A stretch of DNA of 64,000 nt from contig CAMTVQ010000002.1 in assembly GCA_947085255.1 (NCBI GenBank), forward strand, positions 68,688 through 132,687. The letters run 5' to 3'. Of this stretch, positions 11,149 through 43,415 are shown one piece after another; position 1 is the stretch's first letter; each line of letters starts with the position of its first letter. The notes below the pieces were generated by a model. It worked only from the letters and a program-made list of their open reading frames with translations. It searched no databases and was not told where the DNA came from. The stretch comes from an uncultured bacterium (lineage in GTDB: Bacteria > Bacteroidota > Bacteroidia > Sphingobacteriales > Sphingobacteriaceae). The translations under genes and the position numbers were made by a program.

Positions 11149-11384
11149 ACTAATTAAGGGTATAATTGGTCCTACTCTTATGGATTTTCGGTTACTCCCG
11201 TTTTTACTGTGTTTTCTGCTACACATAACAAATGTAGTATTTAATCGCATTGGAGAAAATTCAAGATAATCTATCTTTTTACAGCACATTACTGAAGAAC
11301 AATGTACTTTTGGCAAACCTTAACAACCACAGGTTTCTTTTAAAAACTTCACAAAAAACATCCATTAAATTACACGATAATCAT

Positions 11385-28773: not shown

Positions 28774-28889
28774 GGCAATATTTTTGCAAGTATAAAAATT
28801 AAAATCAGGGTATCGAAACCATGTTCACCTCTTTGCGTTGTATGAAAATTAAATTATATTGCACTTTATTAACACAATTATTTCGTAAA

Positions 28890-31109
28890 ATGAATTATCG
28901 TATCATTCTAAAACATGCAGCTATTTTAGCTTTATCACTTTGCAGTACAGGCACTTTTGCACAAATTGCTATCAATAAGATTTGGAGTGACGTAAGCATC
29001 GAAAGAAGTGCAAATACTGCTACCCTACCAAGTGCATTTAGAGCAGTAAGCATACAAACCGACAATTTAAGGTTACTACTTAATAGCGCCCCTTTAGAAG
29101 CCATAATTACAGCAAAAGCATCACCAGTAGTTATTTCATTACCTATGCCAGATGGCAGCATGCAACGCTTTAGCTTTGTAGAAGCCCCTATTATGGAAGC
29201 CGAATTGGCGGCAAGATACCCTGAAATAAAAACCTATTTAGGTCAAGGAATAGACAACCCCGCGGCAACTGTTCGTTTCGATCTTACTTCTTTGGGATTT
29301 CATGCCATGATATTAAGCTCTGAACATACTGTGTTTATTGACCCTATAACACCCGAAAGTTCTCTATTAATTAGCTATTACAAAGAGAATATGCAGCCAA
29401 GCACAGAATTGCGAAACTGTGCAACAAATACTGCCGAATTAGAGGAATCTACTTCACCACAAAACAAAACAACAGGAACAAACTCAACAGGTAGCACCCT
29501 ACGCACCTATCGTTTGGCCTTGGCAGCTACTGCTGAATATACCAAAGCCCGTGGCGGAACTGTAGCAAAAGCACTTGCCAGCATGACCACTAGCGTTAAC
29601 CGTGTAGTAGGCGTGTATGAAAAAGAAGTGGCTATACGCATGGTATTAATTAGTAATACCGATCAATTAATATTTACAGATGCCACTACAGATGGGTATA
29701 CCAATAGCAATGGAAGTGTTATGCTGAGCGAAAACCAAACAAAGATAGACCTTGTTATTGGAGGTGCTAATTATGACATTGGACACGTTTTTAGTACAGG
29801 CGGTGGTGGTATTGCCGATTTACAATCGCCATGCAGTAGCAACAGAAAAGCACGTGGAGTTACAGGTTCATCCAACCCAACTGGCGACCCTTTTGATATT
29901 GATTTTGTAGCACACGAAATGGGGCATCAATTTGGTGGATTACACACATTTAATAGTACGTTTAGTGGCTGTGCGGGCAATCGCTCGGCAAGTGCCGCTT
30001 ATGAGCCAGGTAGTGGAGTAACTATAATGGGATATGCTGGTCTTTGCGGTAGCGATAACATACTCAGCAACAGTATTCCTTACTTCCATGTAAAGAGTTT
30101 TGATCAGATAACCGAATTTTCAGCAGGAGGAGGAAATTGTGCCACCAGTTCGGCAACAGGTAATGCGGCACCATTAGTTGATGCAGGTAATGATTTTGTA
30201 ATTCCAAAAAGCACTCCTTTTCTACTTACAGGTACAGCTAGCGACCCTAATGGCGATGCGCTTACCTATTCTTGGGAACAATATGATTTAGGACCTGCTG
30301 GACCACCTAACCAAGCTACAGAAACCAATGCACCTTTATTTCGCTCGTTTGCGCCAAAGCCAACTCCATCACGCATGTTTCCTCAACTAAAGGATGTATT
30401 ATCGGGAAAACCTACCAAAGGTGAAATTTTGCCTTCGGTTGGTAGAGACTTAAACTTCCGTTTTATTGTACGCGACAATCGTGCAGGTGGTGGTGGAGTA
30501 GCTTATGATGACTTGTTAGTTATTGTAGATAATGCAGGTGGCCCTTTTATTGTTACAGATCCAATACAAGGAACAGCTTGGGCGTTTGGTCAACTTCGCC
30601 CCGTAAGATGGAATGTGGCAAACAGCAATAAGTCACCTATAAATTGTGCGCTTGTAAATATTCTCATTTCATACGATAGCGGCCTTACATTTCCTGACAC
30701 CCTTTTAAAAAACGCTCCTAATACTGGCGAAGCATTTGTGGTTACACCGAACAAGCTAACTACTAAAGGACGTATTTTAGTACAAGGGGTAAATAATGTA
30801 TTCTTCAATATTACTCCTTCTGATTTTGCCATTGTAGCTACAGGCGGAACTTCAGCTATTGAAACCGTATTAGCCGAGAGCATATCTATTTTTCCTAATC
30901 CTACAAAACATATTTTTACTATTAACCTAAATGGAGTTGATAGCAAAGCAGTAACAGTAACTAACTACTTAGGACAACTGATATACGAAACACGTACCGC
31001 AAACACTACTACTACAATTGATTTAAGTACTGAAAAAGCAGGCGTTTATTTTGTAAAAGTGCAAACAAAAGACAATTACTTTATCACCAAAAAGCTGATA
31101 AAATTATAA
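28890..31109 (+). CDS. reprolysin-like (M12B-type) zinc metalloprotease with T9SS type A C-terminal sorting domain
   Basis: The ORF track starts at 28821. The ATG at 28890 gives signal peptide MNYRIILKHAAILALSLCSTGTFAQ. HEMGHQFGGLHTF zinc site. C-terminal SIFPNPTKHIFTINL...GVYFVKV tail. Confidence 0.8.
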   Translation: MNYRIILKHAAILALSLCSTGTFAQIAINKIWSDVSIERSANTATLPSAFRAVSIQTDNLRLLLNSAPLEAIITAKASPVVISLPMPDGSMQRFSFVEAPIMEAELAARYPEIKTYLGQGIDNPAATVRFDLTSLGFHAMILSSEHTVFIDPITPESSLLISYYKENMQPSTELRNCATNTAELEESTSPQNKTTGTNSTGSTLRTYRLALAATAEYTKARGGTVAKALASMTTSVNRVVGVYEKEVAIRMVLISNTDQLIFTDATTDGYTNSNGSVMLSENQTKIDLVIGGANYDIGHVFSTGGGGIADLQSPCSSNRKARGVTGSSNPTGDPFDIDFVAHEMGHQFGGLHTFNSTFSGCAGNRSASAAYEPGSGVTIMGYAGLCGSDNILSNSIPYFHVKSFDQITEFSAGGGNCATSSATGNAAPLVDAGNDFVIPKSTPFLLTGTASDPNGDALTYSWEQYDLGPAGPPNQATETNAPLFRSFAPKPTPSRMFPQLKDVLSGKPTKGEILPSVGRDLNFRFIVRDNRAGGGGVAYDDLLVIVDNAGGPFIVTDPIQGTAWAFGQLRPVRWNVANSNKSPINCALVNILISYDSGLTFPDTLLKNAPNTGEAFVVTPNKLTTKGRILVQGVNNVFFNITPSDFAIVATGGTSAIETVLAESISIFPNPTKHIFTINLNGVDSKAVTVTNYLGQLIYETRTANTTTTIDLSTEKAGVYFVKVQTKDNYFITKKLIKL

Positions 31110-31804: not shown

Positions 31805-32374
31805 TTGAAACTGTACATCAAATACATGGTAAGCACACGCTGTATAATGGCAGTAAAAGCTGAATTAAAAAAGCTTGGGCTGCATTATATTCTTGTGGAT
31901 TTAGGTGAGGTAGAGATTATGGAAGACCTTTCCTTAGCACAACGGGAGGAACTATCTGCTGCTTTGCGCGAATCGCGGTTGGAATTAATGGATGATAAAC
32001 GGTCTGTGATAATTGAACGAATAAAAACGGTCATCACCGAAATGATTCACTATTTGGATGATATGCCCAAGGTGAACTACTCTGAATATCTTAGTGAAAA
32101 GCTAAACTACGATTACACCTATCTTTCCAATATATTCTCGGAGGTAAAGGGTATTACCATACAGCAATTTATCATTCTACATAAGATTGAGCGGGTAAAA
32201 GAGTTGCTGATATATGAGGAACTAAATCTTACGGAGATTTCTTACAAACTCCACTACAGCAGCGTAGCCCACTTATCCAATCAGTTTAAAAAAGTTACGG
32301 GGCTCTCTCCATCTGATTTTAGACATTTAAAAGGACACAAGCGTATGCCAATTGAAGAAATTGGCGTCCGTTAA
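31805..32374 (+). CDS. AraC/XylS-family transcriptional regulator with a short N-terminal non-HTH domain
   Basis: 189 aa, TTG start. C-terminal HTH_18 (YDYTYLSNIFSEVKGITIQQFIILHKIERVKELL...LNLTEISYKLHYSSVAHLSNQFKKVTGLSPSDFR). The N-terminus MKLYIKYMVSTRCIMAVKAELKKLGL resembles the common Bacteroidota AraC N-terminal module. Confidence 0.8.
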   Translation: MKLYIKYMVSTRCIMAVKAELKKLGLHYILVDLGEVEIMEDLSLAQREELSAALRESRLELMDDKRSVIIERIKTVITEMIHYLDDMPKVNYSEYLSEKLNYDYTYLSNIFSEVKGITIQQFIILHKIERVKELLIYEELNLTEISYKLHYSSVAHLSNQFKKVTGLSPSDFRHLKGHKRMPIEEIGVR

Positions 32375-32420: not shown

Positions 32421-34427
32421 ATGGAACTACTAAAAAGCAAAGAATCTCAATACGCCCGAAACTTAATTGAAGCGAGTTTGGATCCGTTGATTACGATTAA
32501 TACCCAAGGTAAGATTACAGATATGAATCAAGCAACCGTAAATATTACGGGCATATCACGCGAAAAATTAATTGGCACCGATTTCTTCGATTATTTTACC
32601 GAACCAGATAAAGCACAAGAAGTTTACAAGCAAGTGTTTGCTAAAGGCTTTGTGGCCGACTATCCGCTTACTATACGCGACCATAAACTGACCGATGTGC
32701 TATTTAATGGTTCGGTGTACAAAGACGAAGAAGGCAATGTAGCGGGCATAGTGGTGGTAGCAAGAGATATTACCGAACAAAAGAAGAATGAAAAAGAACT
32801 GACCGAAGCAAAAGTGTTTGCCGAATTGGCAACAGCTATTGCAGAAGAAGCAAAATGCAAAGCCGAATGTGCTATGCGTATAGCCGAAGATGCGGTAAAG
32901 GCAAAACAACAGTTTTTGTCGAATATGAGTCACGAAATTCGCACGCCAATGAATGCGATTATCGGGTTTACCAAAGTAGTACTGCGCACCGACCTTACGG
33001 CAAAACAAAAGGAATACCTTACTGCCATAAAAATGAGTGGTGATGCCTTAATTGTGCTCATTAACGATATTCTGGATTTGGCAAAAGTAGATGCCGGAAA
33101 AATGGTATTTGAACATACACCTTTCAAAATGGCATTATCCATATCGGCTATGCTGCATTTGTTTGAAACAAAAATACAGGAGAAAAACCTGCAAATGATT
33201 AAAGAATACGACAACAGGATTCCGGAAGTATTGCTTGGCGACCCTGTGCGTTTGCACCAAATTATTTTAAACTTAGTAAGCAATGCAGTAAAATTTACCA
33301 ATACCGGAAAGATTGTAGTAAAAGTGAGTTTAATGCACGAGGATGAGGATAACGTAACGATTGAGTTTGCCGTTACAGATACAGGCATTGGCATTGCAGC
33401 AGATAAACTAAAAAATGTTTTTGATGATTTTCAGCAAGCCACCAGCGGCACTTCCAGATTGTATGGCGGCACCGGATTGGGCTTGGCCATTGTAAAACAA
33501 TTAGTAGAACCACAAGGAGGAAAAATTACGGTAAAAAGTAAAATTGGTGAGGGTTCTACGTTTAGTTTCTTCCTTACTTTTCAAAAAACCATAGCACTGG
33601 CAGAGTTAGAAACCAGTATTGAGGAGTTGGATAAAGAAGTGACGAATATAAAAGTATTGGTGGTAGAAGATATTGCACTGAACCAATTACTGATGAAAAC
33701 CTTATTGGATGATTTTGGCTTTGAGCGCGACATTGCAGCAAACGGGCGCATCGCCATTGAAAAGGTAGAAAGCAAGGAATACGACATTATTTTAATGGAC
33801 TTGCAGATGCCCGAAATGAATGGATTTGAAGCCACCGAATATATTCGAAAAACGATAGGCTCCAACGTTCCGATTATTGCCTTAACTGCCGATGTAACCA
33901 CCGTTGATTTGGCAAAGTGCAAAGCCGTGGGCATGAACGATTACATTGCCAAACCCATAGACGAACGTTTGCTCTATAGCAAAATAATAGGCTTGGTAAA
34001 AAAACCAGCTATTGTTGCCCCTAAAAAAATAGTAAACGAAGCTGGTCAAAAGCTAAAATGCATTGACTTGGATTACCTAACACACCGCACCAAATCAAAC
34101 CCAGCGCTGATGATGGAAATGATTTTGTTGTATTTGGAACAAACCCCTGTTTTGATTAATAATATGAAACAAAGTTTTCAGGATAAAGATTGGCAGTCCT
34201 TATATGTAGCAGTACATAAAATGATTCCTTCTTTTGCCATAGTGGGCATTAGTCCAAGCTTTGAAACGATGGCAAAAAGGATACAGGATTTTGCCAGCAC
34301 ACAACAACAAGCCGACGAAATACCAGACTTGGTATTGCAACTGGAGAATGTATGCACACAGGCCTGCATTGAATTGGAAGAAGAATTTAACTTAATTAAA
34401 AATACAACTGATGAACAGCACAAATAA
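32421..34427 (+). CDS. PAS - HisKA - HATPase - REC - HPt hybrid sensor histidine kinase
   Basis: 668 aa. PAS (ITINTQGKITDMNQATVNITG). H-box [17 protein letters not shown]-boxes DTGIGI and GGTGLGLAI. Receiver (VLVVEDIALNQ...[12 protein letters not shown]...ALTA). C-terminal HPt-like helix bundle (AVHKMIPSF). Confidence 0.85.
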   Translation: MELLKSKESQYARNLIEASLDPLITINTQGKITDMNQATVNITGISREKLIGTDFFDYFTEPDKAQEVYKQVFAKGFVADYPLTIRDHKLTDVLFNGSVYKDEEGNVAGIVVVARDITEQKKNEKELTEAKVFAELATAIAEEAKCKAECAMRIAEDAVKAKQQFLSNMSHEIRTPMNAIIGFTKVVLRTDLTAKQKEYLTAIKMSGDALIVLINDILDLAKVDAGKMVFEHTPFKMALSISAMLHLFETKIQEKNLQMIKEYDNRIPEVLLGDPVRLHQIILNLVSNAVKFTNTGKIVVKVSLMHEDEDNVTIEFAVTDTGIGIAADKLKNVFDDFQQATSGTSRLYGGTGLGLAIVKQLVEPQGGKITVKSKIGEGSTFSFFLTFQKTIALAELETSIEELDKEVTNIKVLVVEDIALNQLLMKTLLDDFGFERDIAANGRIAIEKVESKEYDIILMDLQMPEMNGFEATEYIRKTIGSNVPIIALTADVTTVDLAKCKAVGMNDYIAKPIDERLLYSKIIGLVKKPAIVAPKKIVNEAGQKLKCIDLDYLTHRTKSNPALMMEMILLYLEQTPVLINNMKQSFQDKDWQSLYVAVHKMIPSFAIVGISPSFETMAKRIQDFASTQQQADEIPDLVLQLENVCTQACIELEEEFNLIKNTTDEQHK

Positions 34428-34848
34428 AATAGCCCTTTTTTTGGTAGATGATGATGCCGTGTTTTTAAAAACATTAGAGATTGAGCTCTTAGAACATGGC
34501 GATTTTGATATTGAAACCTTTGCCACAGGTGAGTTGTGCTTGGCACGCCTCGCATCATTCTGCCCTGATATAATCATTTTAGATTATCATTTAGATGGTA
34601 TTGAAAAAAATGCCATGAACGGCATGGATGCCTTGGATGCTATAAAGGCAATAAACTCAGAAATACCGGTAATCATGCTCTCTTCGCAAGATAAAATCGA
34701 GGTAGCTGTCAACTGTATGCATCACCGTGCTTTTGATTATGTGGTGAAAAGCGAAACTGCTTTTATGCGCGTACAAAAAATCATTACCAACGTATTTAAG
34801 TACAAAAAAATAGAGAAAGAATTAAAATGGTATATGGAGCGGATGTAA
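34411..34848 (+). CDS. single-domain response regulator (receiver only)
   Basis: 145 aa. LFLVDDD...IIILDYHL...MLSS...VVK receiver signature. Overlaps the upstream kinase gene by 17 nt. Confidence 0.8.
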   Translation: MNSTNKIALFLVDDDAVFLKTLEIELLEHGDFDIETFATGELCLARLASFCPDIIILDYHLDGIEKNAMNGMDALDAIKAINSEIPVIMLSSQDKIEVAVNCMHHRAFDYVVKSETAFMRVQKIITNVFKYKKIEKELKWYMERM

Positions 34849-34901
34849 ATCACATTACTTTGTTACTATACCTTGCTTAATACGCGTTTTAAACACTAAT
34901 A

Positions 34902-35366
34902 ATGGATCCTGAACAATTACCTACATCGTTGAAAATTCTACTGGCTGATGACGATACTGACGATCGCTTTTTCTTTGATAAAGCAATTAATGAAATACCC
35001 ATTGCAACGCAACTTGCAACTGTAAATGATGGGGAACAGCTAATGAATTACCTTTTTGAAAACGCAGTATGCTTACCCGATATTCTTTTTCTTGACCTTA
35101 GTATGCCACGTAAAACGGGGTTTGAATGCCTAACAGAGATTAAAGAAGATGAACGGTTTAAAAATATTCCGGTGATCGTTTTTACAACCTCATTTGGCAG
35201 AGGACAAGAATACGAGCAACGATTAATAGACACTCTCCAAAATATAGGAGCACAAGAATACATTCGGAAACCAGGTGATTTAAAACAACTTAAACAAGTT
35301 ATTCTCGATCAACTTGTAAAAGCAACAGAGAAAAAAAACGCTGACCCATCAGGAGACATTCTATAA
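34902..35366 (+). CDS. single-domain response regulator (Rcp1-like receiver)
   Basis: 154 aa. ILLADDDTDDRFFF ... LFLDLSMPRKTGFECL ... VIVFTTS ... YIRKP. Confidence 0.8.
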   Translation: MDPEQLPTSLKILLADDDTDDRFFFDKAINEIPIATQLATVNDGEQLMNYLFENAVCLPDILFLDLSMPRKTGFECLTEIKEDERFKNIPVIVFTTSFGRGQEYEQRLIDTLQNIGAQEYIRKPGDLKQLKQVILDQLVKATEKKNADPSGDIL

Positions 35367-35424
35367 TGCCTCTATTAATTACTAAAACTATTTTTCAATC
35401 AGATTATCCCCTAATTACCCTATT

Positions 35425-35868
35425 ATGAAACTAAAAGCTCTTAATATATTACTTGCAGATGACGATATTGACGATTGCGCATTTTTTCAGCAAGCGTTGG
35501 ACGAGTTATCCTTATCTGCACAGCTCACCATTGTACACGATGGAGAAAAACTGATGAAACACCTTTCAGAAAATTTAGAACACCTTCCACATGTTATTTT
35601 TCTTGATATTAATATGCCGCTCAAAAACGGTCCAGAGTGCTTATCGGAAATGAAAAAAAATACGCATTTAAAAGATATCCCCGTAGTTATGTTTTCTACC
35701 TCTAATTCTTGGGATACCATAAATACGCTATTTAAGAGTGGGGCGCATGTGTATATTCACAAACCAAGTGATTTTAAACAATTGAAACAGGTGATTCATC
35801 ATGCATTGCCGATAGCGGCAGAAAAAATATTTTCGAACGGACCCGTAAAGTATGTTCTTAACGCATAA
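35425..35868 (+). CDS. single-domain response regulator (Rcp1-like receiver)
   Basis: 147 aa. ILLADDDIDDCAFF ... IFLDINMPLKNGPECL ... VVMFSTS ... YIHKP. Confidence 0.8.
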   Translation: MKLKALNILLADDDIDDCAFFQQALDELSLSAQLTIVHDGEKLMKHLSENLEHLPHVIFLDINMPLKNGPECLSEMKKNTHLKDIPVVMFSTSNSWDTINTLFKSGAHVYIHKPSDFKQLKQVIHHALPIAAEKIFSNGPVKYVLNA

Positions 35869-35894
35869 AACACCTTTAAAAAACAACAACTCAT

Positions 35895-36395
35895 ATGAAT
35901 TTAGACCAAATGAATATTCTGCTTGCAGATGACGATACGGATGATTGTGTTTTTTTTAAAGAGGCTGTAGAAGAAGTACTACCAGCTACTAACCTTACTG
36001 CCGTGCATGATGGTGAACAATTAATGCGATTTCTTGCAAATGAGGGCAATAAACTTCCTGATGTACTTTTTTTAGACTTGAATATGCCACGTAAAAACGG
36101 TTTTGAGTGTTTGTCGGAAATAAAGCTAAATCACAAATTAAAGCAACTTCCGGTAATTATGTTCTCTACTTCTTATGAACAAGAAGTGGTAAACCAACTT
36201 TACCAAAATGGTGCCCAATACTTTATTCGTAAGCCTTCTGAATTTTCGCAATTCAAAAAAATTATTCAACATACCCTTTTGCAACTACAGCAAGAACTAT
36301 CTGCACCAATAAGTATGCTACAGGGCAGCGAAGCGGAGCATATTTTACAACCAACCAGAGAAGATTTTGTACTCTCTGTGCAAAGTAACAATTAG
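35895..36395 (+). CDS. single-domain response regulator (Rcp1-like receiver)
   Basis: 166 aa. ILLADDDTDDCVFF ... LFLDLNMPRKNGFECL ... VIMFSTS ... FIRKP. Confidence 0.8.
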   Translation: MNLDQMNILLADDDTDDCVFFKEAVEEVLPATNLTAVHDGEQLMRFLANEGNKLPDVLFLDLNMPRKNGFECLSEIKLNHKLKQLPVIMFSTSYEQEVVNQLYQNGAQYFIRKPSEFSQFKKIIQHTLLQLQQELSAPISMLQGSEAEHILQPTREDFVLSVQSNN

Positions 36396-36406
36396 CACTA
36401 AAACAC

Positions 36407-37723
36407 ATGATAGAACTAACGAAAGCGGACGAACTAACTATTGCTAGTAAGGAACTTGCTTTTCAGAACGATGAGAAAGAAAAACGGGCCGCCGAATTAC
36501 TAATTGCCAACAAAGAGCTTGCTTTTCAGAACGATGAGAAAGAAAAACGGGCCGCCGAATTACTAATTGCCAACAAAGAGCTTGCTTTTCAGAATGATGA
36601 GAAAGAAAAGCGCGCAGCCGAATTGTTAATTGCCAACAAAGAATTGGCTTTCCAAAACGATGAGAAAGAAAAACGTGCAGCAGAACTAACCATTGCTAAC
36701 AAAGAGCTTGCTTTCCAAAACGATGAGAAAGAAAAGCGCGCAGCCGAGCTGATAATTGCTAACAAAGAATTGGCTTTCCAGAACGACGAGAAAGAAAAGC
36801 GTGCAGCCGAACTGATTATTGCCAACAAAGAATTGGCTTTCCAGAATGATGAGAAAGAAAAGCGCGCAGCAGAACTAATTATTGCCAACAATGAACTAGC
36901 TTTCCAAAACGATGAGAAAGAAAAGCGCGCAGCAGAACTAATTATTGCCAACAAAGAACTTGCTTTCCAGAACGATGAGAAAGAAAAGCGTGCAGAAGAG
37001 CTGATTATTGCCAATAAAGAACTGCTTGCATTTACGTACATATCCAGTCATGATTTGCAAGAACCCTTGCGAAAAATACAAACCTTTGTTACGATTATAC
37101 TCGAAAACGAAAACAAGAATTTATCTGAAAAAGGTAAGTATCATTTCGAGCGCATGCAAGTGGCCGCAGGACGAATGCAGCAACTTATTGATGATTTACT
37201 GGCCTTTTCTCGCATTGCCACAACGGAGCTCAAGTTTGAAAAAACGGATCTCAATTTAATTGTAGAAGAAGTAAAAACAGAGCTTAGAGAAACCATTCAG
37301 GAAAAAAATGGTACTATAGAGGCCATAGAACTGGGTTCTGCCAATATCATTGCTTTTCAGTTTAGGCAATTGATGTACAATCTTATCAGCAATGCGCTCA
37401 AGTTTTCGAACCCTAATTTACCATCACATATTACCATAACAAGCAGTATTATAAAAGGCAGTAAACTAAACAACGAACGGCTTTCTGCCGGCAAAAACTA
37501 TTGCCACATTACTGTAAAAGACAATGGCATAGGCTTTGAGCCCCGCTTTAGTGAACGCATTTTTGGTGTATTCCAAAAGCTGCACGGCAAAGAAGTATAT
37601 GCCGGAACAGGTATTGGACTTGCCATTGTAAAAAAGATAGTAGAAAACCACAACGGCATTATTGCTGCCGCCAGTGAATTAAATAAGGGGGCAACTTTTA
37701 ATATTTATATCCCTGCTAACTAA
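36407..37723 (+). CDS. soluble histidine kinase whose whole N-terminal region is a tandem 21-aa coiled-coil repeat, joined directly to HisKA-HATPase
   Basis: 438 aa. No TM segment and no PAS/GAF domain. 9 full copies plus 1 partial copy of L(L/I/T)IANKELAFQNDEKEKRAAE. Then H-box FTYISSHDLQEPLRKI, N-box LISNALKF, and G-boxes DNGIGF and GTGIGLAI. Confidence 0.85.
   Translation: MIELTKADELTIASKELAFQNDEKEKRAAELLIANKELAFQNDEKEKRAAELLIANKELAFQNDEKEKRAAELLIANKELAFQNDEKEKRAAELTIANKELAFQNDEKEKRAAELIIANKELAFQNDEKEKRAAELIIANKELAFQNDEKEKRAAELIIANNELAFQNDEKEKRAAELIIANKELAFQNDEKEKRAEELIIANKELLAFTYISSHDLQEPLRKIQTFVTIILENENKNLSEKGKYHFERMQVAAGRMQQLIDDLLAFSRIATTELKFEKTDLNLIVEEVKTELRETIQEKNGTIEAIELGSANIIAFQFRQLMYNLISNALKFSNPNLPSHITITSSIIKGSKLNNERLSAGKNYCHITVKDNGIGFEPRFSERIFGVFQKLHGKEVYAGTGIGLAIVKKIVENHNGIIAAASELNKGATFNIYIPAN
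36434..37024 (+). repeat. 63-bp in-frame tandem repeat, about 9.4 copies (coding)
   Basis: Each unit encodes 21 aa (three heptads). The first copies are DNA-identical. Later copies differ mostly at synonymous positions (for example gcttttcagaac versus gctttccaaaac; aaacgggccgcc versus aagcgcgcagca). Confidence 0.9.
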
Positions 37724-37844
37724 GAAAATCAGCGGATAATATGTATATTCGCTATACATAGATGTTGATAATTACCAACCTGATTGATAGGTAATTATTG
37801 CTAAATCTTATTACGAGTAATATACCAGTTAGATAGGTAGTGCC

Positions 37845-40800
37845 ATGAAATTACTCACCCCCGCCTTACAAAAAAAAGTAGTTCTGCAAGAAAAGACCCC
37901 TGAACATTCATTTCCGATAGTTGCTATTGGTGCTTCGGCAGGAGGCTTGGAAGCCGTGAGCGAATTATTGAGAAATTTGCCGGCTAATACAGGCATGGCC
38001 TATATTTACGTACAACACTTAAGCCCCGATCATAAAAGTTTTCTCACTCCTATCTTATCTAAGGTTACTAAGATGAAAGTGCAGGAAATTGAAAATATGG
38101 AGCACATGGCTCCGAACAACGTATATGTAATTCCACACAATAAGGGAATAGAGGTTATTGATGGGCAGATTCAGTTAATTCCTCGCCTTAAAATCAGTAC
38201 TGGAAGTCTTACCATTGATGTTCTTTTTTCCTCGTTGGCAGAAACTCATAAAGAAAATGTAATAGGCATCGTTCTTTCTGGCTATGCCAGTGATGGCGCA
38301 ATTGGACTTAAAACAATTAAAGCTGCCGGAGGATTAACCTTTGCGCAGGACGACTCCGCTCAGGCAAGCAGTATGCCCGAATCGGCCATAGCCGTAGGGG
38401 CTGTCGATTTTGTGATGTCGCCAAAAAAAATAGCGCAGGAATTAGTAAAAATTAGCAAAAATGGCTTTCTGCGGACTATTATTAAGCTCCGACAAAATAA
38501 GAATACCCTTGAGGAGAATAATTTCAACCTGAAAACAATTTTTGAGCTCTTGCATAAGCAAACCGGTGTTGATTTTAGTCATTACAAAATGAGCACCATT
38601 AAGCGGCGCTTAAGGCACAGAATGCTTCAAACAGATATACATACTGTAGAAGAATTTACGGAGCACTTGCTTAAAAATACTGCTGAGGTAGATTTGCTTT
38701 ACAAAGATTTGCTAATACATGTAAGTAGTTTTTTTAGGGAGACCGAAACCTTTAAGTATTTGCAAACAGCTTTTTTGCCCAAACTTATTGCCAGCAAGCA
38801 CGCCGACGAAACACTACGGATATGGGTAACTGCCTGTTCTAGTGGAGAAGAAGCCTACTCTATTGCTATGCTCATTAGCGAAATTCAGAGCCATAACAAA
38901 ACAAAAATACCTGTACAAATTTTTGCTACCGACCTTAGCGAAGAAGCCATTCGTATTGCACGTATTGGTGAGTATACGCAAAAGGATGTTAGTGTAATTG
39001 CTAAAAAGAGAGTAAGTACCTTTTTTACAAAAACGGGTGATACGTACCGCATTGCTAAAGAAATTAGAGAGATGTGTATATTTGCACCTCATAATGTTTT
39101 GAGCGATCCTCCCTTTGCGCGGATTGATTTTATTAGCTGTTGCAACCTGCTCATTTACTTTGATATGCCTGCGCAAAAAAGAGCACTAGCAACCTTTAAT
39201 TTTGCGTTGAATGATGGGGGCTATTTGATGTTGGGCAAATCTGAAACCATAGGAGCAGCCTCTCCCTTTTTTACTCGAATAGATACTAAATTCAAGGTTT
39301 ATTCACGAAAAAAAAATACAGGCATTCGAAAAGTACCCGACCTGTTGCCGCGCATTCCCAGAACCGCTATTCCTGAAAAAAGCACAAAACCTGTTTTAAT
39401 GAAAAGTACAGCTATTAATTCGGCAGAGTTAGACAAGTCTATAGATGCTATTCTGCTTACGAATTACATGCCCGCCTGTGCAATCATCAATAAGGATATG
39501 GAAATCCTTCAGTTTAGGGGCTCCACCTCTGTATTTCTAGAGCATGCTTCGGGCAGGGCAAGTCTTAATATTTTGAAGATGATAAAGCCAGAGTTTGCTT
39601 TTGAACTTAGAAGTGTGATACACAAAGCACTAAAAAGCAAAACAACGGTACGCAAATCGGATATTGAGATGAAGATTGGTGCCAATTATAAAATGATTTC
39701 GTTGGAGGTATGCCCTCTTAAAATTGATTGGGATGAACCACTGCTGCTTATCGTTTTTACGATACAAGAACAGGTTGAAAAATATATTGGGGTTGGCAAA
39801 GATAAAAGGTTAGTCATTGGAACAAAAGAGCAAGAGCAAAAAATAAAAAGGCTGAGTGAAGAATTAGCTCTTGCACGTGCCGAAATGCATACGATTATCG
39901 AATCGCAGGAAATAGCTTATGAGGAACTGCAGGCAGCTAATGAAGAAATAACCTCTACCAACGAAGAGTTTCAGACCTTGAATGAAGAACTTGAAACCTC
40001 TAAGGAAGAAATTGAGGCTACCAACGAAGAGCTTATTTGTACCAACCATGAGTTGCAAATACGCAATGATCTTTTGACGGAGTCGTACAGATACTCGGAA
40101 GCTATTATAGCTACTATTCATGAACCAATGATTGTTCTTGACAGTAATCTTCATGTAAAATCTGCCAACAAATCGTTTTACAAAAAATTTCGCACTACTA
40201 AAGAGGATACCGAAGGAGTGCTCGTGTTTGAATTAGGAAACAAGCAATGGGATATTCGTCAGCTACATCTATTGCTCGAAAATATTGTTTCGAAAAATAG
40301 TGATTTTAATAGTTTTGAGGTAACGCATACATTTCCGGGTATAGGCGAAAAAATAATGTTGCTTAACGCACACCGTATTGTTCAAAAGATTCATCATGAG
40401 CATTTAATTCTTCTTGCTTTTGAAGACATTACAGAACGTGCCAACTATTACCTCAATGAAAAGGCCATTCTTAGCCGCGAAAAGCAAATAGCAGAAATGG
40501 CGGTTCATTCCAAACAACAGTTTTTGTCGAACATGAGCCACGAAATTCGCACGCCTATGAATGCGATTATTGGCTTTACCAAAGTGGTTTTAAAAACAGA
40601 TTTAACTGAAAAACAAAAGGAATACGTAAATGCCATTAAAGTATCGTGTGATGACTTAATCGTTTTGATAAATGACATACTTGATCTTGCCAAGGTAGAC
40701 GCCGGCAAGATGACTTTTGAGCAATCTAAATTTGCAGTACTGCCATCCATTACGGCTATACTCCATTTGTTTGAAACAAAAATTCAAGAAAAAAGCTTAG

Positions 40801-42017
40801 AATTAATTACAGTATACGACACTACTATTCCTAAAGTAGTACTTGGCGACGCTGTACGACTAAACCAGATTATTCTGAATTTAGTTAGTAATGCCATTAA
40901 ATTTACCGAAAAGGGAAAAATTACTGTAAGTGTGCGTAAGATAGCCGAGGATGAGGAAGGCACAACTATTGAATTTGCAGTGAAAGATACTGGAATTGGA
41001 ATACCAGCAGATAAGCTACCCAGTATTTTTCAAAAATTCCAACAGGCATCCAGCAGTACTGCACGATTATATGGAGGTACAGGATTGGGGCTTGCCATTG
41101 CTAAACAATTAGTGGAAGCACAGGGCGGAACAATTAAGGTTGAAAGCGAAAACAATATAGGATCTACGTTTACTTTTACACTTGCTTTTCAAAAAACAAC
41201 GGAGGAAATAGGCATTGAAACCGAAGATGTTGCATCAGGATCTGAATTTAAACACCTAAAAGTATTGGTGGTTGAAGATATTCAGCTCAACCAGTTGCTG
41301 ATGAAAACCATATTAGATGATTTTGGATTTGAAGGTGACATTGCTGCCAACGGAAAAATAGCCATAGAGCTGCTGAAACATAAATCGTACGATGTTATTT
41401 TGATGGATTTGCAAATGCCCGAAATGGATGGGTTTGAAGCCACAGAATATATTCGAAAAACGCTAGGTTCCACCGTTCCGATTATTGCCTTAACTGCAGA
41501 TGTAACCACGGTTGATTTAGCAAAATGCAAAGCCGTGGGCATGAACGACTATTTGGCAAAACCTGTAGACGAGCGTTTGCTATACAGAAAGATAGTTGGT
41601 TTGGTAAAAAAAACAACGACTGCACGAGGCAATAAGACTAAAAATAAAGCAGTTAAAAAACAAAAAACGGATACCTACACTAATTTGGATTACTTAGTGC
41701 AGCGTACCAAATCAAACCCAGCATTATTGGCCGAAATTATTTCTCTTTACTTGAAGCAAAATCCGCTCTTAATTGCTGCACTTAAACAAAGCTTGGTGAA
41801 TAAAGATTGGCATGCCATGCACATGGCGGCACATAAAATGATTCCCTCCTTTTCAATAATGGGTTTTAGCAACAACTTTGAAGATGCCGCCAAAAAAATT
41901 CAGGAGTATGCAAGTGCCAAAGAGCATCTGGATAAAATACCTGATTTAGTGGCGCAGTTGGATAAAGTTTGCACAGATGCCTATATAGAATTAGAAGACG
42001 CACTTACTAAACTATAA
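37845..42017 (+). CDS. CheB methylesterase - CheR methyltransferase - coiled coil - PAS - HisKA - HATPase - REC - HPt fusion protein
   Basis: 1390 aa. CheB-like ([15 protein letters not shown]...YVQHLSPDH). CheR SAM motif ([18 protein letters not shown]). EE-heptad coiled coil. PAS. The kinase/REC/HPt part is a close paralog of 32421-34427 ([24 protein letters not shown] identical). Confidence 0.85.
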
Positions 42018-42051: not shown

Positions 42052-42085
42052 TACCCATTATGCTTTGCGTAGTGGGTATTTTTTT
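42052..42085 (+). terminator. rho-independent terminator after the kinase operon
   Basis: TACCCATTA (42052-42060) pairs with TAGTGGGTA (42070-42078), followed by a T7 run at 42079-42085. Confidence 0.65.
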
Positions 42086-42193: not shown

Positions 42194-42637
42194 ATGAAAA
42201 TATTATTAGCTATAGATGGTTCTGCGCATAGTATGGCCGCTGTTCAAGAAATTGCATGCAGGCCGTTTCCGCCTAAAACAGAAGTGCGCATTCTTGCTGT
42301 GTACGAAATTGCACCATTTATTATGCAAACAGAATTAGCAAGCATATCTCAAGAATACTATGCCGAAGCTGATAAGTATGCGCTAAAAGCAGCCACAACT
42401 ATTGCCGAAAAGGCAGCTCATGAATTACACACAAAAAATCCTGCACTCACAGTTAGTACTACGGTGGTAGAAGGCGCTCCAAAGAGTGTTATTTTAAAAG
42501 AAGCCGAAACTTTTGGTGCTAATTTGATTGTGGTGGGTTCTCATGGATATGGGGCTATAGAGCGTTTTTTGCTTGGCTCTGTTTCTCAATCGGTGGCATT
42601 ACATGCAAAATGTTCGGTAGAAATAGTACGCAAATAA
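42194..42637 (+). CDS. universal stress protein (UspA family)
   Basis: 147 aa. KILLAIDGS ... LIVVGSHGYGAIERFLLGSVSQSVALHAKCSVEIVR is the canonical Usp ATP-binding motif. Confidence 0.85.
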   Translation: MKILLAIDGSAHSMAAVQEIACRPFPPKTEVRILAVYEIAPFIMQTELASISQEYYAEADKYALKAATTIAEKAAHELHTKNPALTVSTTVVEGAPKSVILKEAETFGANLIVVGSHGYGAIERFLLGSVSQSVALHAKCSVEIVRK

Positions 42638-42671: not shown

Positions 42672-43415
42672 ATGAAATTACAACACAACACCCTAACAGC
42701 CTTTGCTTTGGTAACATTGCTTTTGGTAACCGCTTGTACAGAAGACAACAATAACCCAGGAGGTAATCCTATTGTAATTCCTCTTCAAACTACGGTACAT
42801 GCTATCGTTCCACTTGGAGGCACTATCAACTTTGCAGTACTTGCTGGTTCAGCTGTTACCAATACAGGTGCAACCGTAATTACTGGCGATTTAGGACTTA
42901 GCCCTGGCACTTCGGTAGGCGGATTTCCTCCCGGCATACTCAATGGCACACAACACATTAACGATACCATTGCCACCCAAGCAAAACAGGATTTAACTAC
43001 CGCCTATAACGATGCAGCAGGAAGAACAGCTACAGATATCGTTACCCTATCGGGCAATATCGGTGGACTTACACTTACCCCAGGGCTGTATAAATCTACC
43101 TCCTCATTGTCTATCTCTTCGGGTGATGTTACGTTTGATGCAAAAGGAAATGCAAATGCTGTGTTTATTATACAAATAGCTTCTGCTTTTACCACCACAT
43201 CTGGTCGTAAAGTTATTCTTAGTGGAGGTGCGCAGGCATCCAATATTTTTTGGCAGGTAGGCAGTTCGGCAACTTTTGGTACTACCTCTGTACTTAAAGG
43301 AACAATAATGGCTATGCAGTCGATTACGTTTAATACTGGAGCAACGCTTGATGGCAAAGCACTAACTAGAACAAGCGCCGTTACCCTATCGGGCAATACC
43401 ATTGTAAAGCAGTAA
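42672..43415 (+). CDS. ice-binding-like (DUF3494) family lipoprotein, single domain
   Basis: 247 aa. Lipobox LLVTAC. FAVLAGSAVTNTGATVITGDLGLSPG ... LTPGLYKSTSSLSISSGDVTFDAKGNANAVFIIQI ... IFWQVGSSATFGTTSVLKGTIMA ... LDGKALTRTSAVTLSGNTI is the DUF3494 beta-solenoid signature. Confidence 0.8.
   Translation: MKLQHNTLTAFALVTLLLVTACTEDNNNPGGNPIVIPLQTTVHAIVPLGGTINFAVLAGSAVTNTGATVITGDLGLSPGTSVGGFPPGILNGTQHINDTIATQAKQDLTTAYNDAAGRTATDIVTLSGNIGGLTLTPGLYKSTSSLSISSGDVTFDAKGNANAVFIIQIASAFTTTSGRKVILSGGAQASNIFWQVGSSATFGTTSVLKGTIMAMQSITFNTGATLDGKALTRTSAVTLSGNTIVKQ

What the first reader, a model, noticed from the sequence alone, without database searches (positions are those of the whole stretch)
36407..37723. 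A histidine kinase whose only input region is about 9.4 tandem copies of a 21-residue (3-heptad) coiled-coil unit
Residues 10-206 consist of L(L/I/T)IANKELAFQNDEKEKRAAE repeated nine times plus a partial tenth copy. The repeats run straight into the DHp H-box (KELLAFTYISSHDLQEPLRKI). There is no TM helix and no PAS, GAF or other sensor domain.

The unit is exactly three heptads, so all copies stay in coiled-coil register with the DHp helix. Single copies of the same ELAFQNEEKEKRAAEL-type motif are familiar as linker (signalling) helices between PAS domains and DHp in other kinases. Here the linker has been amplified into a helix of about 200 residues.

At the DNA level the first copies are identical. 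Later copies differ mainly at synonymous sites while the peptide stays nearly invariant. This argues for selection on the repeat itself, not only for recent slippage.

Possible roles are a thermosensing or unfolding coiled coil, a length-variable (contingency) element, or a docking or methylation scaffold for the neighbouring CheB-CheR protein.
Basis: partly seen in the sequence, partly recalled or inferred. Interest (0 to 1): 0.62.

Follow-up and report, generated by a model that had tools for sequence, protein, structure and literature searches.

The report
Kinase with repeated coiled-coil stalk
A soluble bacterial signalling kinase whose entire front half is predicted to be one roughly 30-nm helix built from nine near-identical 21-residue units, and this repeat, for which I found no description, turns out to be a common building block of signalling proteins in Bacteroidota.

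Summary
ORF 36407-37723 (438 aa) carries 9 full and one partial copy of ELxIANKELAFQNDEKEKRAA (63-nt period, no indels). The array runs into the H-box (His215) of an intact HisKA/HATPase_c kinase. It has no TM segment or sensor domain.

With an alignment, AlphaFold2 predicts one uninterrupted helix, residues 7-234. The DNA copies are old and under purifying selection (pS 0.61, pN/pS 0.07).

The gene is not unique. The repeat alone finds 1,682 50%-identity clusters, and relatives occur in at least 594 stretches of species-representative genomes, mostly Bacteroidota. It sits in many architectures: N-terminal arrays, PAS-to-DHp linkers, SpoIIE phosphatases and CHASE3 receptors.

Length changes are nearly always whole heptads, and the distance from the last unit to the histidine is fixed. 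The conserved neighbour is a receiver gene directly upstream (39 of 41 close loci), not CheB-CheR. The repeat has no methylation consensus.

Best reading: a parallel coiled-coil signalling stalk continuous with the DHp, comparable to poly-HAMP arrays, whose input is unknown. A thermosensing role is untested. Contingency and CheBR-substrate roles are weakly supported or unsupported. Pfam, NCBIfam and the searchable papers do not describe the repeat.

The parts
36407..37723 (+). Gene for a 438-aa soluble histidine kinase: repeat array, then DHp (HisKA), then CA (HATPase_c)
   Evidence: ORF; Pfam; PDB sequence matches to bacteriophytochrome-type kinase modules and HK853; fold search
36431..36997 (+). 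Nine full 63-nt / 21-residue units (aa 9-197), each made of three heptads: ELxIANK, ELAFQNx, EKEKRAA
   Evidence: family logo from 2989 units; heptad-level indels
36998..37030 (+). Partial tenth unit (ELIIANKEL) that merges into DHp helix 1
   Evidence: continuous predicted helix 7-234
36455..36594 (+). The only long exact DNA repeat in the array: 77 nt at an offset of 63 nt (36455-36531 = 36518-36594). Copy count here cannot be verified with short-read unitigs
37031..37219 (+). HisKA / DHp domain (aa 209-271). The phospho-acceptor His215 is at 37049-37051 in the H-box SHDLQEPLRKI
37358..37717 (+). HATPase_c catalytic domain (aa 318-437). N, G1, F and G2 boxes are present (NLISNALKF, DNGIGF, IFGVF, GTGIGL)
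   Evidence: invariant columns; pLDDT 85-93; boxes read directly from the sequence
35895..36395 (+). Single-domain receiver REC4, ending 11 nt before the kinase start; the likely cognate partner. The acidic pocket (DDD), the LFLDLNMP aspartate, the Ser/Thr and the FIRKP lysine are all present
   Evidence: an orthologous receiver gene lies directly upstream in 39 of 41 close loci
34411..35868 (+). Three further stand-alone receiver genes: REC1 34411-34848, REC2 34902-35366, REC3 35425-35868. REC2-4 are paralogues (48-54% identity)
   Evidence: related loci carry 1-6 tandem receiver genes
32421..34427 (+). PAS-HisKA-HATPase-REC-Hpt hybrid kinase; it overlaps the REC1 start by 17 nt
   Evidence: 68% identical over 505 aa to the C-terminal part of the CheB-CheR hybrid kinase
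31805..32374 (+). AraC-type HTH protein at the head of the cluster
   Evidence: orthologues lie near the kinase in about 9 loci
37845..42017 (+). CheB-CheR-PAS-HisKA-HATPase-REC-Hpt hybrid kinase downstream; an occasional neighbour, not a conserved one
42052..42078 (+). The only strong plus-strand terminator-like hairpin after the cluster (12-bp stem plus a T-run)

Best explanation
The gene encodes a cytoplasmic class-I (HisKA) histidine kinase of the bacteriophytochrome-like type. Its N-terminal ~200 residues form one long alpha-helix made of 9-10 copies of a conserved three-heptad unit, and this helix is continuous with DHp helix 1.

In the kinase dimer the two helices most likely pair as a parallel, in-register coiled-coil stalk about 30 nm long (inferred). 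The stalk is not a recent slippage product. It is a portable signalling module, a 'poly-21-mer', used throughout Bacteroidota wherever coiled-coil linkers occur, and also as a free N-terminal array.

I propose that the pairing or rotational state of the stalk is read directly by the DHp and sets kinase activity (inferred). The analogy is with S-helix and HAMP modules, and with LvrB, where coiled-coil formation upstream of the DHp frees the catalytic domains. In this sensor-less member the array itself is the input and dimerisation element, as in input-less poly-HAMP kinases.

The kinase is probably co-transcribed with the adjacent single-domain receiver(s), above all REC4, and most likely phosphorylates them (inferred). 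It sits inside a larger cluster: AraC, hybrid kinase-Hpt, four receivers, this kinase. What sets the state of the stalk is not known. It could be a physical variable or a partner binding the conserved surface.
For: Shown:
- Intact ORF with the array running into the H-box.
- Intact HisKA and HATPase_c domains and catalytic boxes.
- The kinase core matches RpBphP2 and other bacteriophytochrome kinase modules and HK853 by sequence (E 5e-37 to 1e-18) and by fold.
- AlphaFold2 with a 46-sequence alignment gives a single helix 7-234 through His215, with pLDDT 60-79 in the array.
- Heptad quantisation. 2637 spacings are 21 residues, and 45 of 52 others are 7, 14, 28, 35 or 42. Individual heptads (ELAFQNx, ELxIANK, EKEKRAx) are deleted or duplicated as modules.
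- All 1069 pairs of kinases with at least 80% core identity differ in array length by multiples of 7.
- The last-unit-to-His distance is 38 in 109 of 112 homologues. The (His minus unit start) mod 7 class is mostly shared across different H-box types.
- Purifying selection on every unit: pS 0.61, pN 0.042.
- In 2989 units, 11 of 21 positions are at least 91% conserved. They fill four adjacent heptad spokes, while the variable positions fill two adjacent spokes.
- The module is portable. The repeat alone finds 1682 clusters, in architectures with PAS, GAF, CHASE3, REC, several HisKA types and SpoIIE.
- A receiver gene lies directly upstream in 39 of 41 close loci, 11 nt from the kinase start here. 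No plus-strand terminator occurs before 42052.

From the literature:
- Heptad periodicity of sensor-kinase linkers, with 7n versus 7n+1 inverting the output (PMC6798134).
- Coiled-coil formation upstream of the DHp activates LvrB (PMC13269768).
- Poly-HAMP kinases lack an input domain (PMC13446029).
Against: - No dimer model or experiment exists. The parallel two-stranded state is inferred only from continuity with the DHp.
- Hydropathy power at period 3.5 is weak in the array. The pattern is a hydrophobic block (ELxIANKELAF) alternating with a charged block (QNDEKEKRAA) that looks like a single-alpha-helix segment.
- In either plausible register the core would hold Asn/Asn/Lys or Gln/Lys/Arg. 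Conserved Ile4 and Phe11 would then lie outside a two-stranded core. A higher-order or partner-bound state is therefore possible.
- Most 21-residue length changes follow trivially from whole-unit recombination and do not by themselves prove selection for register. Seven non-heptad spacings exist, all in degenerate units.
- Sixty-three arrays sit N-terminal to PAS or other domains rather than next to a DHp, so direct read-out by the DHp cannot be the only role of the module.
- No expression data were found.
Confidence: 0.45

Rival explanations
1. Physical sensor. The stalk is a marginally stable coiled coil whose cooperative melting or re-pairing with temperature, ionic strength or pH switches the kinase. 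Copy number would tune the set-point and sharpness, in the manner of TlpA.
For: - Polar or charged residues occupy the predicted core positions, and heptad amphipathicity is weak.
- There is no other input domain.
- Copy number ranges from 7 to 21 among relatives and differs between kinases with identical cores.
- In this window a universal stress protein and an ice-binding-like protein follow the cluster. Ice-binding-like genes lie within 10 kb in five other loci.
- Many carriers come from cold freshwater, glacier-fed or Antarctic samples, judging by record titles.
Against: - A coil that only needs to melt does not need 16 of 21 positions conserved across paralogues and phyla.
- The same unit serves as a linker between PAS/GAF/CHASE3 sensors and outputs, where it must transmit a signal rather than sense one.
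- The link to ice-binding genes is weak (6 of 85 loci), and that family is common in Bacteroidota.
- The environmental bias may reflect sampling.
- No biophysical data exist.
Confidence: 0.2
2. Docking or co-assembly scaffold. Each unit is a binding site. Either a common partner (such as the small receivers) binds periodically along the rod, or arrays of different signalling proteins zip together into hetero-oligomers or cytoplasmic signalling arrays.
For: - Strong conservation extends to positions that would be solvent-exposed in a two-stranded coil: Glu1/8/15, Ile4, Phe11 and Lys18.
- Near-identical units occur on many different signalling proteins. These include orthologues of the very hybrid kinase that neighbours this gene: P0197 and P0232 have receiver domains 75-80% identical to the window's.
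- One to six receiver genes lie next to the kinase.
- Two hydrophobic seams (Leu2/Leu9 and Ile4/Phe11) fall on nearly opposite faces of the helix.
Against: - No partner has been identified.
- Only one array-bearing gene lies in this 64-kb window.
- The count of array-bearing genes per genome could not be obtained.
- Receiver adjacency is what any kinase-regulator pair would show.
Confidence: 0.17
3. Passive rod. The array is only a strong dimerisation domain or spacer for a constitutively active kinase. Control is entirely transcriptional or through the phosphorelay partners.
For: - No sensor domain is present.
- The gene sits in a multi-kinase cluster that contains two sensor-bearing hybrid kinases with Hpt domains.
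- N-terminal arrays also precede PAS arrays, where a dimerising role would suffice.
Against: - Simple dimerisation coils diverge quickly in sequence, whereas this unit is nearly invariant.
- Strict phase conservation up to the histidine.
- The cost of maintaining 200-400 residues under purifying selection.
Confidence: 0.1
4. Contingency element. Recombination between units changes the copy number at high frequency within populations and produces functional variants.
For: - Kinases with 100% identical 225-aa cores carry 10, 11 or 12 units (P0053, P0016, P0014). Other pairs at 99-100% core identity differ by 1-2 units.
- A 77-nt exact repeat exists in this array.
- Units resemble each other within the array (4-9 nt differences) more than they resemble any unit in other genomes (7-10 nt differences).
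Against: - The copies have diverged (pS 0.61), which suppresses slippage.
- The unit is 63 nt, so no ON/OFF frameshift is possible.
- The near-identical pairs are separate database clusters precisely because their lengths differ (ascertainment bias). They also come from short-read metagenome assemblies, which collapse repeats, and many contigs break inside arrays.
- No length-variant joints were seen in run X1, though contigs hide rare variants.
Confidence: 0.04
5. Substrate or docking helix for the neighbouring CheB-CheR protein, with methylation of glutamates in the repeat as in chemoreceptors.
For: The repeat is rich in glutamate. A CheB-CheR hybrid kinase lies next to the gene here and in a few other loci (L001, L024, L046, L054, L075, L077, L081).
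Against: - CheB/CheR is present in only 4 of 33 loci with at least 8 kb of upstream sequence.
- The kinase matches neither the strict nor a loose methylation consensus, and it has no C-terminal pentapeptide (C-terminus read directly).
- The CheB-CheR protein carries its own heptad coil (aa 697-725) with four consecutive loose-consensus sites, which is a better candidate substrate.
Confidence: 0.03
6. Assembly artefact. The array, or its length, was created by mis-assembly of repeats from several organisms.
For: - Repeat k-mers are shared among co-occurring species. Depth in the array reaches 2257x in run X3, where the flanks are at about 5x.
- The 77-nt exact repeat leaves the count of the first units ambiguous.
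Against: - Zero-mismatch unitigs of 163-175 nt, each with a unique pattern of synonymous differences, chain copies 3-9 into the unique flanks at matching depth (74-98x).
- The reading frame is intact.
- Hundreds of independent assemblies, including isolate genomes (Flavipsychrobacter stenotrophus, Algoriphagus aquimarinus, Flavobacterium spp.), carry the same architecture.
Confidence: 0.01

Closest known systems
Poly-HAMP arrays of soluble histidine kinases and chemoreceptors (AskA/AskB, Aer2; Coles et al. 2026, PMC13446029)
   Same: Both are long concatenated arrays of one small coiled-coil signalling module placed directly upstream of the output. Both occur in soluble proteins and typically lack any upstream input domain. 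Array length varies widely between homologues, and the source of the input is an open question.
   Different: A HAMP unit is about 50 residues and forms a four-helix bundle (two helices plus a connector per chain). Here the unit is 21 residues of a single uninterrupted helix, which would give a two-helix coil. Pfam finds no HAMP match. The taxonomic home (Bacteroidota) and the sequence are unrelated.
Signalling helix (S-helix; Anantharaman, Balaji & Aravind 2006, PMC1592074)
   Same: Both are parallel coiled-coil segments just upstream of the DHp, or between sensor and output domains, with conserved polar residues at core positions. In one register the unit's Lys18-Arg19-Ala20 falls on positions c-d-e, where the S-helix has Glu-Arg-Thr.
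   Different: The S-helix is a single segment of about 40 residues (5 heptads) lying between two globular domains and defined by the ERT signature. Here there is no ERT, the unit is 3 heptads repeated 7-21 times, and the array is often N-terminal and free. The paper does not describe tandem arrays.
Coiled-coil linkers of PAS/LOV/bacteriophytochrome histidine kinases (YF1, BphP; Moglich 2019, PMC6798134)
   Same: The kinase core is of the bacteriophytochrome type: SHDLQEPL H-box, best PDB matches 8f71, 9ys3 and 8uph. The linker is continuous with DHp helix 1. Linker lengths are quantised in heptads.
   Different: Known linkers are about 20-50 residues, non-repetitive and poorly conserved in sequence. 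Here the helix is about 200 residues, built of near-identical units, and in this protein has no photosensor or PAS domain upstream.
LvrB and Rec-controlled histidine kinases (Agustoni et al. 2026, PMC13269768)
   Same: LvrB offers a mechanistic precedent: formation of a coiled coil in the helices upstream of the DHp releases the catalytic domains and activates the kinase. The LvrA and LvrB kinase modules are among the sequence matches. A few family members carry REC-array-kinase fusions, such as P0018.
   Different: LvrB has an N-terminal REC domain in the same chain and one short alphaS helix. This protein has no REC domain of its own, and its helix is a 9-unit repeat.
TlpA-type thermosensing coiled coils (own knowledge; reviewed in PMC2814129 and PMC9611254, listed but not read)
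   Same: Both are long, largely uninterrupted coiled coils that form the only plausible sensing element of the protein.
   Different: TlpA is a DNA-binding autorepressor, not a kinase. It has no exact 21-residue repeat and no comparable sequence conservation. Thermal behaviour of the present array is untested.

Membership tests
HisKA-type (class I) histidine kinase | DHp domain with an H-box and a phospho-acceptor histidine | tested here: met
   Pfam HisKA E 1.5e-10, aa 209-271. SHDLQEPLRKI with His215 invariant in 46 homologues.
HisKA-type (class I) histidine kinase | HATPase_c catalytic domain with N, G1, F and G2 boxes | tested here: met
   Pfam HATPase_c E 3.9e-20. N325, N329, D372, G374, G376, F386, F389, G400, G402 and G404 are invariant. 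The fold matches HK853 and BphP kinase modules (E 1e-17 to 1e-15).
HisKA-type (class I) histidine kinase | Homodimer with a four-helix DHp bundle; autophosphorylation and transfer to a receiver | not testable with these tools
   Only monomer prediction was available. The adjacent receiver gene is consistent with this feature.
Bacteriophytochrome / Cph1-type photoreceptor kinase | Kinase module similar to BphP kinase modules | tested here: met
   8f71 (RpBphP2 kinase domain) E 5.4e-37; 9ys3 and 8uph E about 2.5e-27. 8upk is the top fold match.
Bacteriophytochrome / Cph1-type photoreceptor kinase | N-terminal PAS-GAF-PHY photosensory core | tested here: not met
   No PAS, GAF or PHY hit. Only 8 residues precede the array.
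S-helix (signalling helix) | Conserved ERT signature at c-d-e of the central heptad | tested here: not met
   The unit consensus is E-L-x-I-A-N-K-E-L-A-F-Q-N-x-E-K-E-K-R-A-A. There is no ERT, and the nearest match is K-R-A.
S-helix (signalling helix) | A single module of about 40 residues (5 heptads) between two globular signalling domains | tested here: not met
   About 28 heptads, N-terminal and free in this protein.
Poly-HAMP array | Units are HAMP domains (two helices plus a connector, forming a four-helix parallel bundle) | tested here: not met
   No HAMP hit in Pfam. AlphaFold2 gives one uninterrupted helix with no connectors.
Poly-HAMP array | Concatenated modules upstream of the kinase in a soluble protein without an input domain | tested here: met
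   description of poly-HAMP
Canonical heptad coiled coil | Length variation quantised in heptads, and fixed phase to the downstream helix | tested here: met
Canonical heptad coiled coil | Amphipathic a/d hydrophobic pattern with 3.5-residue periodicity | tested here: inconclusive
   Leu2 and Leu9 are invariant on one spoke, but the other core candidates are Asn6/Asn13/Ala20 or Ala5/Gln12/Arg19, plus Lys16. Hydropathy power at 3.5 is weak (31.6, against 191.7 at 5.25).
Chemoreceptor-like CheR/CheB substrate | Methylation consensus [ASTG][ASTG]xx[EQ][EQ]xx[ASTG][ASTG], or a looser form | tested here: not met
   No strict or loose match in the kinase.
Chemoreceptor-like CheR/CheB substrate | Conserved genomic association with CheR/CheB | tested here: not met
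   4 of 33 loci with at least 8 kb upstream; about 8 of 84 overall.
Contingency (repeat-length phase-variable) locus | Near-identical DNA units that allow frequent slippage | tested here: not met
   Copies differ at 4-16 of 63 nt and pS is 0.61. Only one 77-nt exact repeat exists.
Contingency (repeat-length phase-variable) locus | Copy number varies among closely related strains | tested here: inconclusive
   Identical kinase cores carry 10, 11 or 12 units, but clustering bias and short-read collapse are not excluded.
TlpA-like thermosensing coiled coil | Reversible unfolding or dissociation in the physiological temperature range, coupled to output | not testable with these tools
   Needs CD or DSF and activity assays.

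The most novel reading that the evidence does not exclude
The ELxIANKELAFQNxEKEKRAA array is a previously unrecognised class of modular signalling element. It would be a heptad-quantised 'poly-21-mer' coiled coil, the Bacteroidota counterpart of poly-HAMP arrays. In sensor-less kinases like this one it would itself be the receptor. It could act as a cooperative physical sensor, for example of temperature in cold-adapted bacteria. Alternatively it could act as a zipper that assembles several array-bearing kinases and phosphatases into cytoplasmic signalling complexes.
Probability: 0.25. Interest if true: 0.8.

Novelty: new variant of a known kind. Interest (0 to 1): 0.58.

Why it matters
How signals travel along coiled-coil backbones, and what input-less kinases sense, are open questions in two-component signalling.

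This family offers a natural experiment. One near-invariant three-heptad unit is repeated from 1 to more than 20 times, and its length changes are almost always whole heptads. It sits upstream of several output types and downstream of several sensors. It therefore provides a ready-made series for testing long-range transmission, register dependence and cooperativity, and possibly a new kind of physical sensor.

There is also a practical point. More than a thousand protein clusters carry a module that Pfam and NCBIfam do not model, and it currently attracts a false PH_SLA1 annotation. A dedicated repeat model would improve annotation of Bacteroidota signalling proteins. Cultured carriers exist (Flavobacterium spp., Flavipsychrobacter stenotrophus, Algoriphagus aquimarinus), so genetics is feasible.

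Tried and rejected
- **Literature.** Two 'anywhere' searches with ten peptide strings from the repeat, plus four keyword searches, found no description of the repeat.
- **Domain libraries.** Pfam at E up to 10 on the array alone gave only additive false positives: PH_SLA1, CMV_1a_C and DUF7444. NCBIfam gave only generic kinase models far below their cut-offs.
- **Solved structures.** Nothing in the PDB covers the repeat.
- **Single-sequence AlphaFold2.** Too weak to use (pLDDT 51, with a spurious break at 132-142). It was replaced by the alignment-based model. Only monomers could be predicted, so oligomeric state and register stay unresolved.
- **RNA evidence.** No RNA run holds the gene.
- **Copy number from public runs.** Only Logan unitigs were available, and they cannot resolve the 77-nt exact repeat or rare length variants.
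- **Positional orthology of units at the DNA level.** The signal is saturated. Only the last unit before the DHp pairs with its positional counterpart in other genomes.
- **Rosetta-stone link between REC4 and the array.** The rare REC-array-kinase fusions (P0018, P0157, P0225) carry a different type of receiver domain, so they do not link REC4 to the array.
- **CheBR association and methylation consensus.** Both tested negative.
- **Other copies in the window.** None; this is the only array in the 64 kb.
Full report
**1. The observation**

The ORF at 36407-37723 (+) encodes 438 aa. Tandem Repeats Finder reports a 63-nt period, 9.5 copies, 87% matches and no indels over 36430-37027, with score 755.

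In register there are nine full units, ELxIANKELAFQNDEKEKRAA (aa 9-197). A tenth copy keeps ELIIANKEL and then turns into LAFTYISSHDLQEPLRKI, with the phospho-acceptor His215.

Pfam sees only HisKA (aa 209-271) and HATPase_c (aa 318-437). The PH_SLA1 hit is the sum of weak per-unit matches and is spurious. The most hydrophobic 19-residue window scores 0.94, so there is no membrane segment. Only eight residues precede the array. The ORF cannot be extended, because the upstream receiver gene ends 11 nt before the ATG in another frame.

The first copies are not identical at the DNA level: they differ at 9 of 63 and 4 of 63 positions, and there is one 77-nt exact repeat at 36455/36518.

**2. Age and selection**

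The nine copies differ pairwise at 4-16 of 63 nucleotides. Mean pS is 0.61 and pN is 0.042, giving a ratio of 0.07. The array is old, and every unit is under purifying selection at the peptide level.

Units are slightly more alike within the array (4-9 differences) than to any of 541 units from other genomes (7-10 differences). Only the last unit shows positional orthology. This is compatible with slow turnover by unit duplication and loss.

**3. Assembly**

A metagenome run holds 94% of the region's words. Its zero-mismatch unitigs chain copies 3-9 to both unique flanks at similar depth (74-98x). The 77-nt exact repeat forms a loop whose number of passes cannot be read from unitigs. Depth there is 248x, and 114x on the loop junction. 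The count could be 9.4 or 10.4.

The architecture itself is not in doubt, because hundreds of independent assemblies share it.

**4. Structure**

With a 46-sequence alignment, AlphaFold2 gives mean pLDDT 74. It predicts one uninterrupted helix from residue 7 to 234, running through all units and His215. This is followed by DHp helix 2 (241-270) and a confident alpha/beta catalytic domain. At about 0.15 nm per residue (textbook value) the helix is about 34 nm long.

The kinase core matches the RpBphP2 kinase domain (8f71, E 5e-37), full-length bacteriophytochromes and HK853, by sequence and by fold. No solved structure covers the repeat.

**5. A large family**

The whole protein finds thousands of relatives. 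All of the best 120 carry the same units, 7-19 copies each. The array alone (198 aa), searched against 1.84 billion representatives, finds 1,682 clusters at E<=1e-3, 1,047 at <=1e-10 and 440 at <=1e-30.

The best 80 loci are mostly Bacteroidota: Chitinophagaceae, Ferruginibacter, Sediminibacterium, Flavipsychrobacter, Algoriphagus, Flavobacterium, Runella and Puia. A few bins are labelled Ignavibacteriota or Kapaibacterium.

Among 300 arrays in 268 proteins:
- 110 are N-terminal and run straight into an H-box, like this one.
- 63 are N-terminal but followed by other domains.
- 44 lie between a PAS 'DIT' motif and an H-box.

Documented architectures:
- array-HisKA-HATPase-REC x3
- array-PAS xn-kinase
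- REC-PAS-array-kinase
- GAF-PAS-array-kinase
- TM-CHASE3-array-kinase
- PAS-array-PAS-array-kinase
- PAS-array-SpoIIE phosphatase

The array is thus a portable module, not a peculiarity of this gene.

**6. Anatomy of the unit**

A logo was built from 2,989 units:
- Glu1, Leu2, Ala5, Glu8, Leu9, Gln12, Glu15, Lys16, Arg19 and Ala20 are at least 94% conserved, and Asn6 is 91%.
- Ile4, Phe11, Asn13, Glu17 and Lys18 are 76-85% conserved.
- Positions 3, 7, 10, 14 and 21 vary.

On a 3.5-residue wheel the conserved residues fill four adjacent spokes: 1/8/15, 5/12/19, 2/9/16 and 6/13/20. The variable residues fill two adjacent spokes. This looks like one conserved face, but an unusual one. Only Leu2 and Leu9 are classical core residues. 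The other core candidates are Asn/Asn/Ala or Ala/Gln/Arg, plus Lys16.

Hydropathy shows a block pattern rather than strong 3.5-residue amphipathicity. An apolar stretch (ELxIANKELAF) alternates with a charged stretch (QNxEKEKRAA) that resembles a single-alpha-helix segment.

Units near the DHp are closest to consensus (19.8 of 21 identities). The N-terminal units of most homologues are divergent subtypes. The window's array is unusually homogeneous.

**7. Heptad quantisation**

Of 2,689 within-array spacings, 2,637 are 21 residues. Of the other 52, 45 are 7, 14, 28, 35 or 42. The seven exceptions lie in degenerate units.

The events show the three heptads behaving as separable modules. Some units lack ELAFQNx, some lack ELxIANK, and some have an extra EKEKRAx.

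All 1,069 pairs of kinases with at least 80% identical cores differ in array length by multiples of 7. The distance from the last unit to the histidine is 38 residues in 109 of 112 close homologues. The mod-7 class is mostly shared across other H-box types.

Whole-unit changes are expected from recombination alone. The sub-unit events and the fixed junction are the informative part. They match the heptad dependence known for sensor-kinase linkers, where 7n and 7n+1 linkers give opposite responses (PMC6798134).

**8. Genomic context**

In the window the order is:
- AraC-type regulator (31805-32374)
- PAS-kinase-REC-Hpt hybrid (32421-34427)
- four stand-alone receivers (34411-36395)
- this kinase (36407-37723)
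- CheB-CheR-PAS-kinase-REC-Hpt hybrid (37845-42017)
- the only strong plus-strand terminator-like hairpin (42052-42078)

Across related loci the conserved feature is a receiver gene directly upstream on the same strand. It is present in 39 of 41 loci with at least 70% core identity and enough flank, within runs of 1-6 tandem receiver genes. More distant members have a receiver gene downstream or none nearby.

CheB/CheR is nearby in only about 8 of 84 loci, the Hpt hybrid kinase in 6 of 33, and the AraC regulator in about 9.

REC4 has all the receiver active-site residues (read directly from the sequence). It is the most likely phosphotransfer partner, which is an inference.

**9.

(a) Thermosensing or unfolding is untested. 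The polar core and weak amphipathicity make a marginally stable coil plausible. The extreme sequence conservation, and the use of the same unit as a transmitting linker downstream of PAS, GAF and CHASE3 sensors, argue that more than meltability is selected.

(b) Length-variable contingency element. Kinases with identical cores carry 10, 11 or 12 units. However, the database's 90% clustering separates such pairs only because their lengths differ, and short-read assemblies collapse repeats. The copies here have diverged, and the 63-nt unit cannot shift the frame.

(c) CheB-CheR scaffold. The association is sporadic, and the repeat lacks even a loose methylation consensus. The CheB-CheR protein's own coil (aa 697-725) has four consecutive loose-consensus heptads.

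**10. Most likely mechanism**

Shown:
- an intact kinase;
- a predicted continuous helix from the array into the DHp;
- heptad-quantised evolution and a fixed phase to the histidine;
- strong purifying selection;
- portability of the module;
- a conserved adjacent receiver gene.

Inferred:
- The two chains pair as a parallel coiled-coil stalk.
- The stalk's pairing or rotational state is read by the DHp and sets kinase activity. The precedent is LvrB, where coiled-coil formation upstream of the DHp frees the catalytic domains (PMC13269768).
- In this sensor-less member the array is itself the input and dimerisation element, as in poly-HAMP kinases, which also lack an input domain and whose input is still debated (PMC13446029).
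- The four-spoke conserved face would allow two alternative core packings that share Leu2/Leu9/Lys16. That is what a rotary two-state wire would need. This last point is speculation.

I put 0.45 on this reading. The rivals are a physical sensor (0.20), a docking or co-assembly scaffold (0.17), a passive rod (0.10), a contingency element (0.04), a CheBR substrate (0.03) and an artefact (0.01).

**11. Comparison with known systems and novelty**

The protein is a bona fide HisKA kinase with a bacteriophytochrome-type core but no photosensory module. The array is not an S-helix: it lacks the ERT signature and is not a single 5-heptad segment between two domains. It is not a HAMP array. No Pfam or NCBIfam model covers it, and it does not appear in the searchable literature.

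It works most like poly-HAMP arrays and coiled-coil linkers, but it is a different module. I file it as a new variant of a known kind.

It is less singular for the same reason. Interest is 0.58.

Noticed in passing
window 42194-42637 and 42672-43415 (+): Just after the cluster's terminator lie a universal stress protein (Usp, E 4e-26) and an ice-binding-like protein (PF11999, E 2e-65). Ice-binding-like homologues also lie within 10 kb of the repeat kinase in L007, L014, L032 (directly downstream), L036 and L046. That is 6 of 85 loci. It suggests a cold-related regulon, but the enrichment is weak.
   Followed up: partly
window 37845-42017, aa 697-725 of the product: The CheB-CheR hybrid kinase carries its own heptad coil ([32 protein letters not shown]). 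Its four consecutive heptads fit a loose chemoreceptor methylation consensus, so the protein may methylate or demethylate itself.
   Followed up: partly
window 31805-32374 (+): An AraC-type HTH protein (189 aa) heads the signalling cluster. Orthologues at 61-72% identity recur near the repeat kinase in about 9 other loci (L011, L022, L024, L030, L031, L046, L081/82), plus a weaker 45% match in L041. It is a candidate output regulator, since none of the receivers has an output domain.
   Followed up: partly
window 32421-34427 and 37845-42017: The two hybrid kinases flanking the cluster are paralogues, 68% identical over 505 aa (HisKA-HATPase-REC-Hpt), with different sensor parts. In other genomes, relatives of these kinases carry an N-terminal 21-mer array: P0197 and P0232 have receiver domains 75-80% identical to the upstream hybrid kinase's.
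   Followed up: partly
window 36589-37041 (-): A 150-aa antisense ORF made of SSAARFSFSSFWKA-type repeats is the mirror image of the array. It is almost certainly not a gene.
   Followed up: no
window 36431-37024 and the family as a whole: Pfam PH_SLA1 (PF24081) exceeds its gathering score (28-36 bits against 27) on the array by summing weak per-unit matches. This false positive appears in the precomputed annotation of most family members.
   Followed up: yes
window 36455-36594; run X1: Unitig depths over the 77-nt exact repeat (248x) and its loop junction (114x) exceed twice and once the flank depth (74-78x). Either co-occurring strains share these words or the true array has one more unit.
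   Followed up: partly
window 37724-37844: The 121-nt gap between the kinase and the CheB-CheR gene holds two perfect short inverted repeats (37768-37776/37790-37798 and 37740-37747/37753-37760). They could be an operator or an RNA hairpin. No T-run terminator is present.
   Followed up: no
window 36431-36997: Some codons are invariant in all nine copies despite pS of 0.61: ATT for Ile4, GCT for Ala10, and GAG-AAA-GAA for Glu15-Lys16-Glu17. The GAG may serve to avoid long A-runs.
   Followed up: no
window 11165-11229 (-) and 3077-3163 (-): A DUF805 RNA motif (RF03081, 59 bits) and a tRNA gene were found by the Rfam scan.
   Followed up: no
window 28821-31109 (+): A reprolysin-like M12B metallopeptidase with a Por_Secre_tail (type IX secretion sorting domain) lies here. 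This fits a Bacteroidota origin for the window.
   Followed up: no
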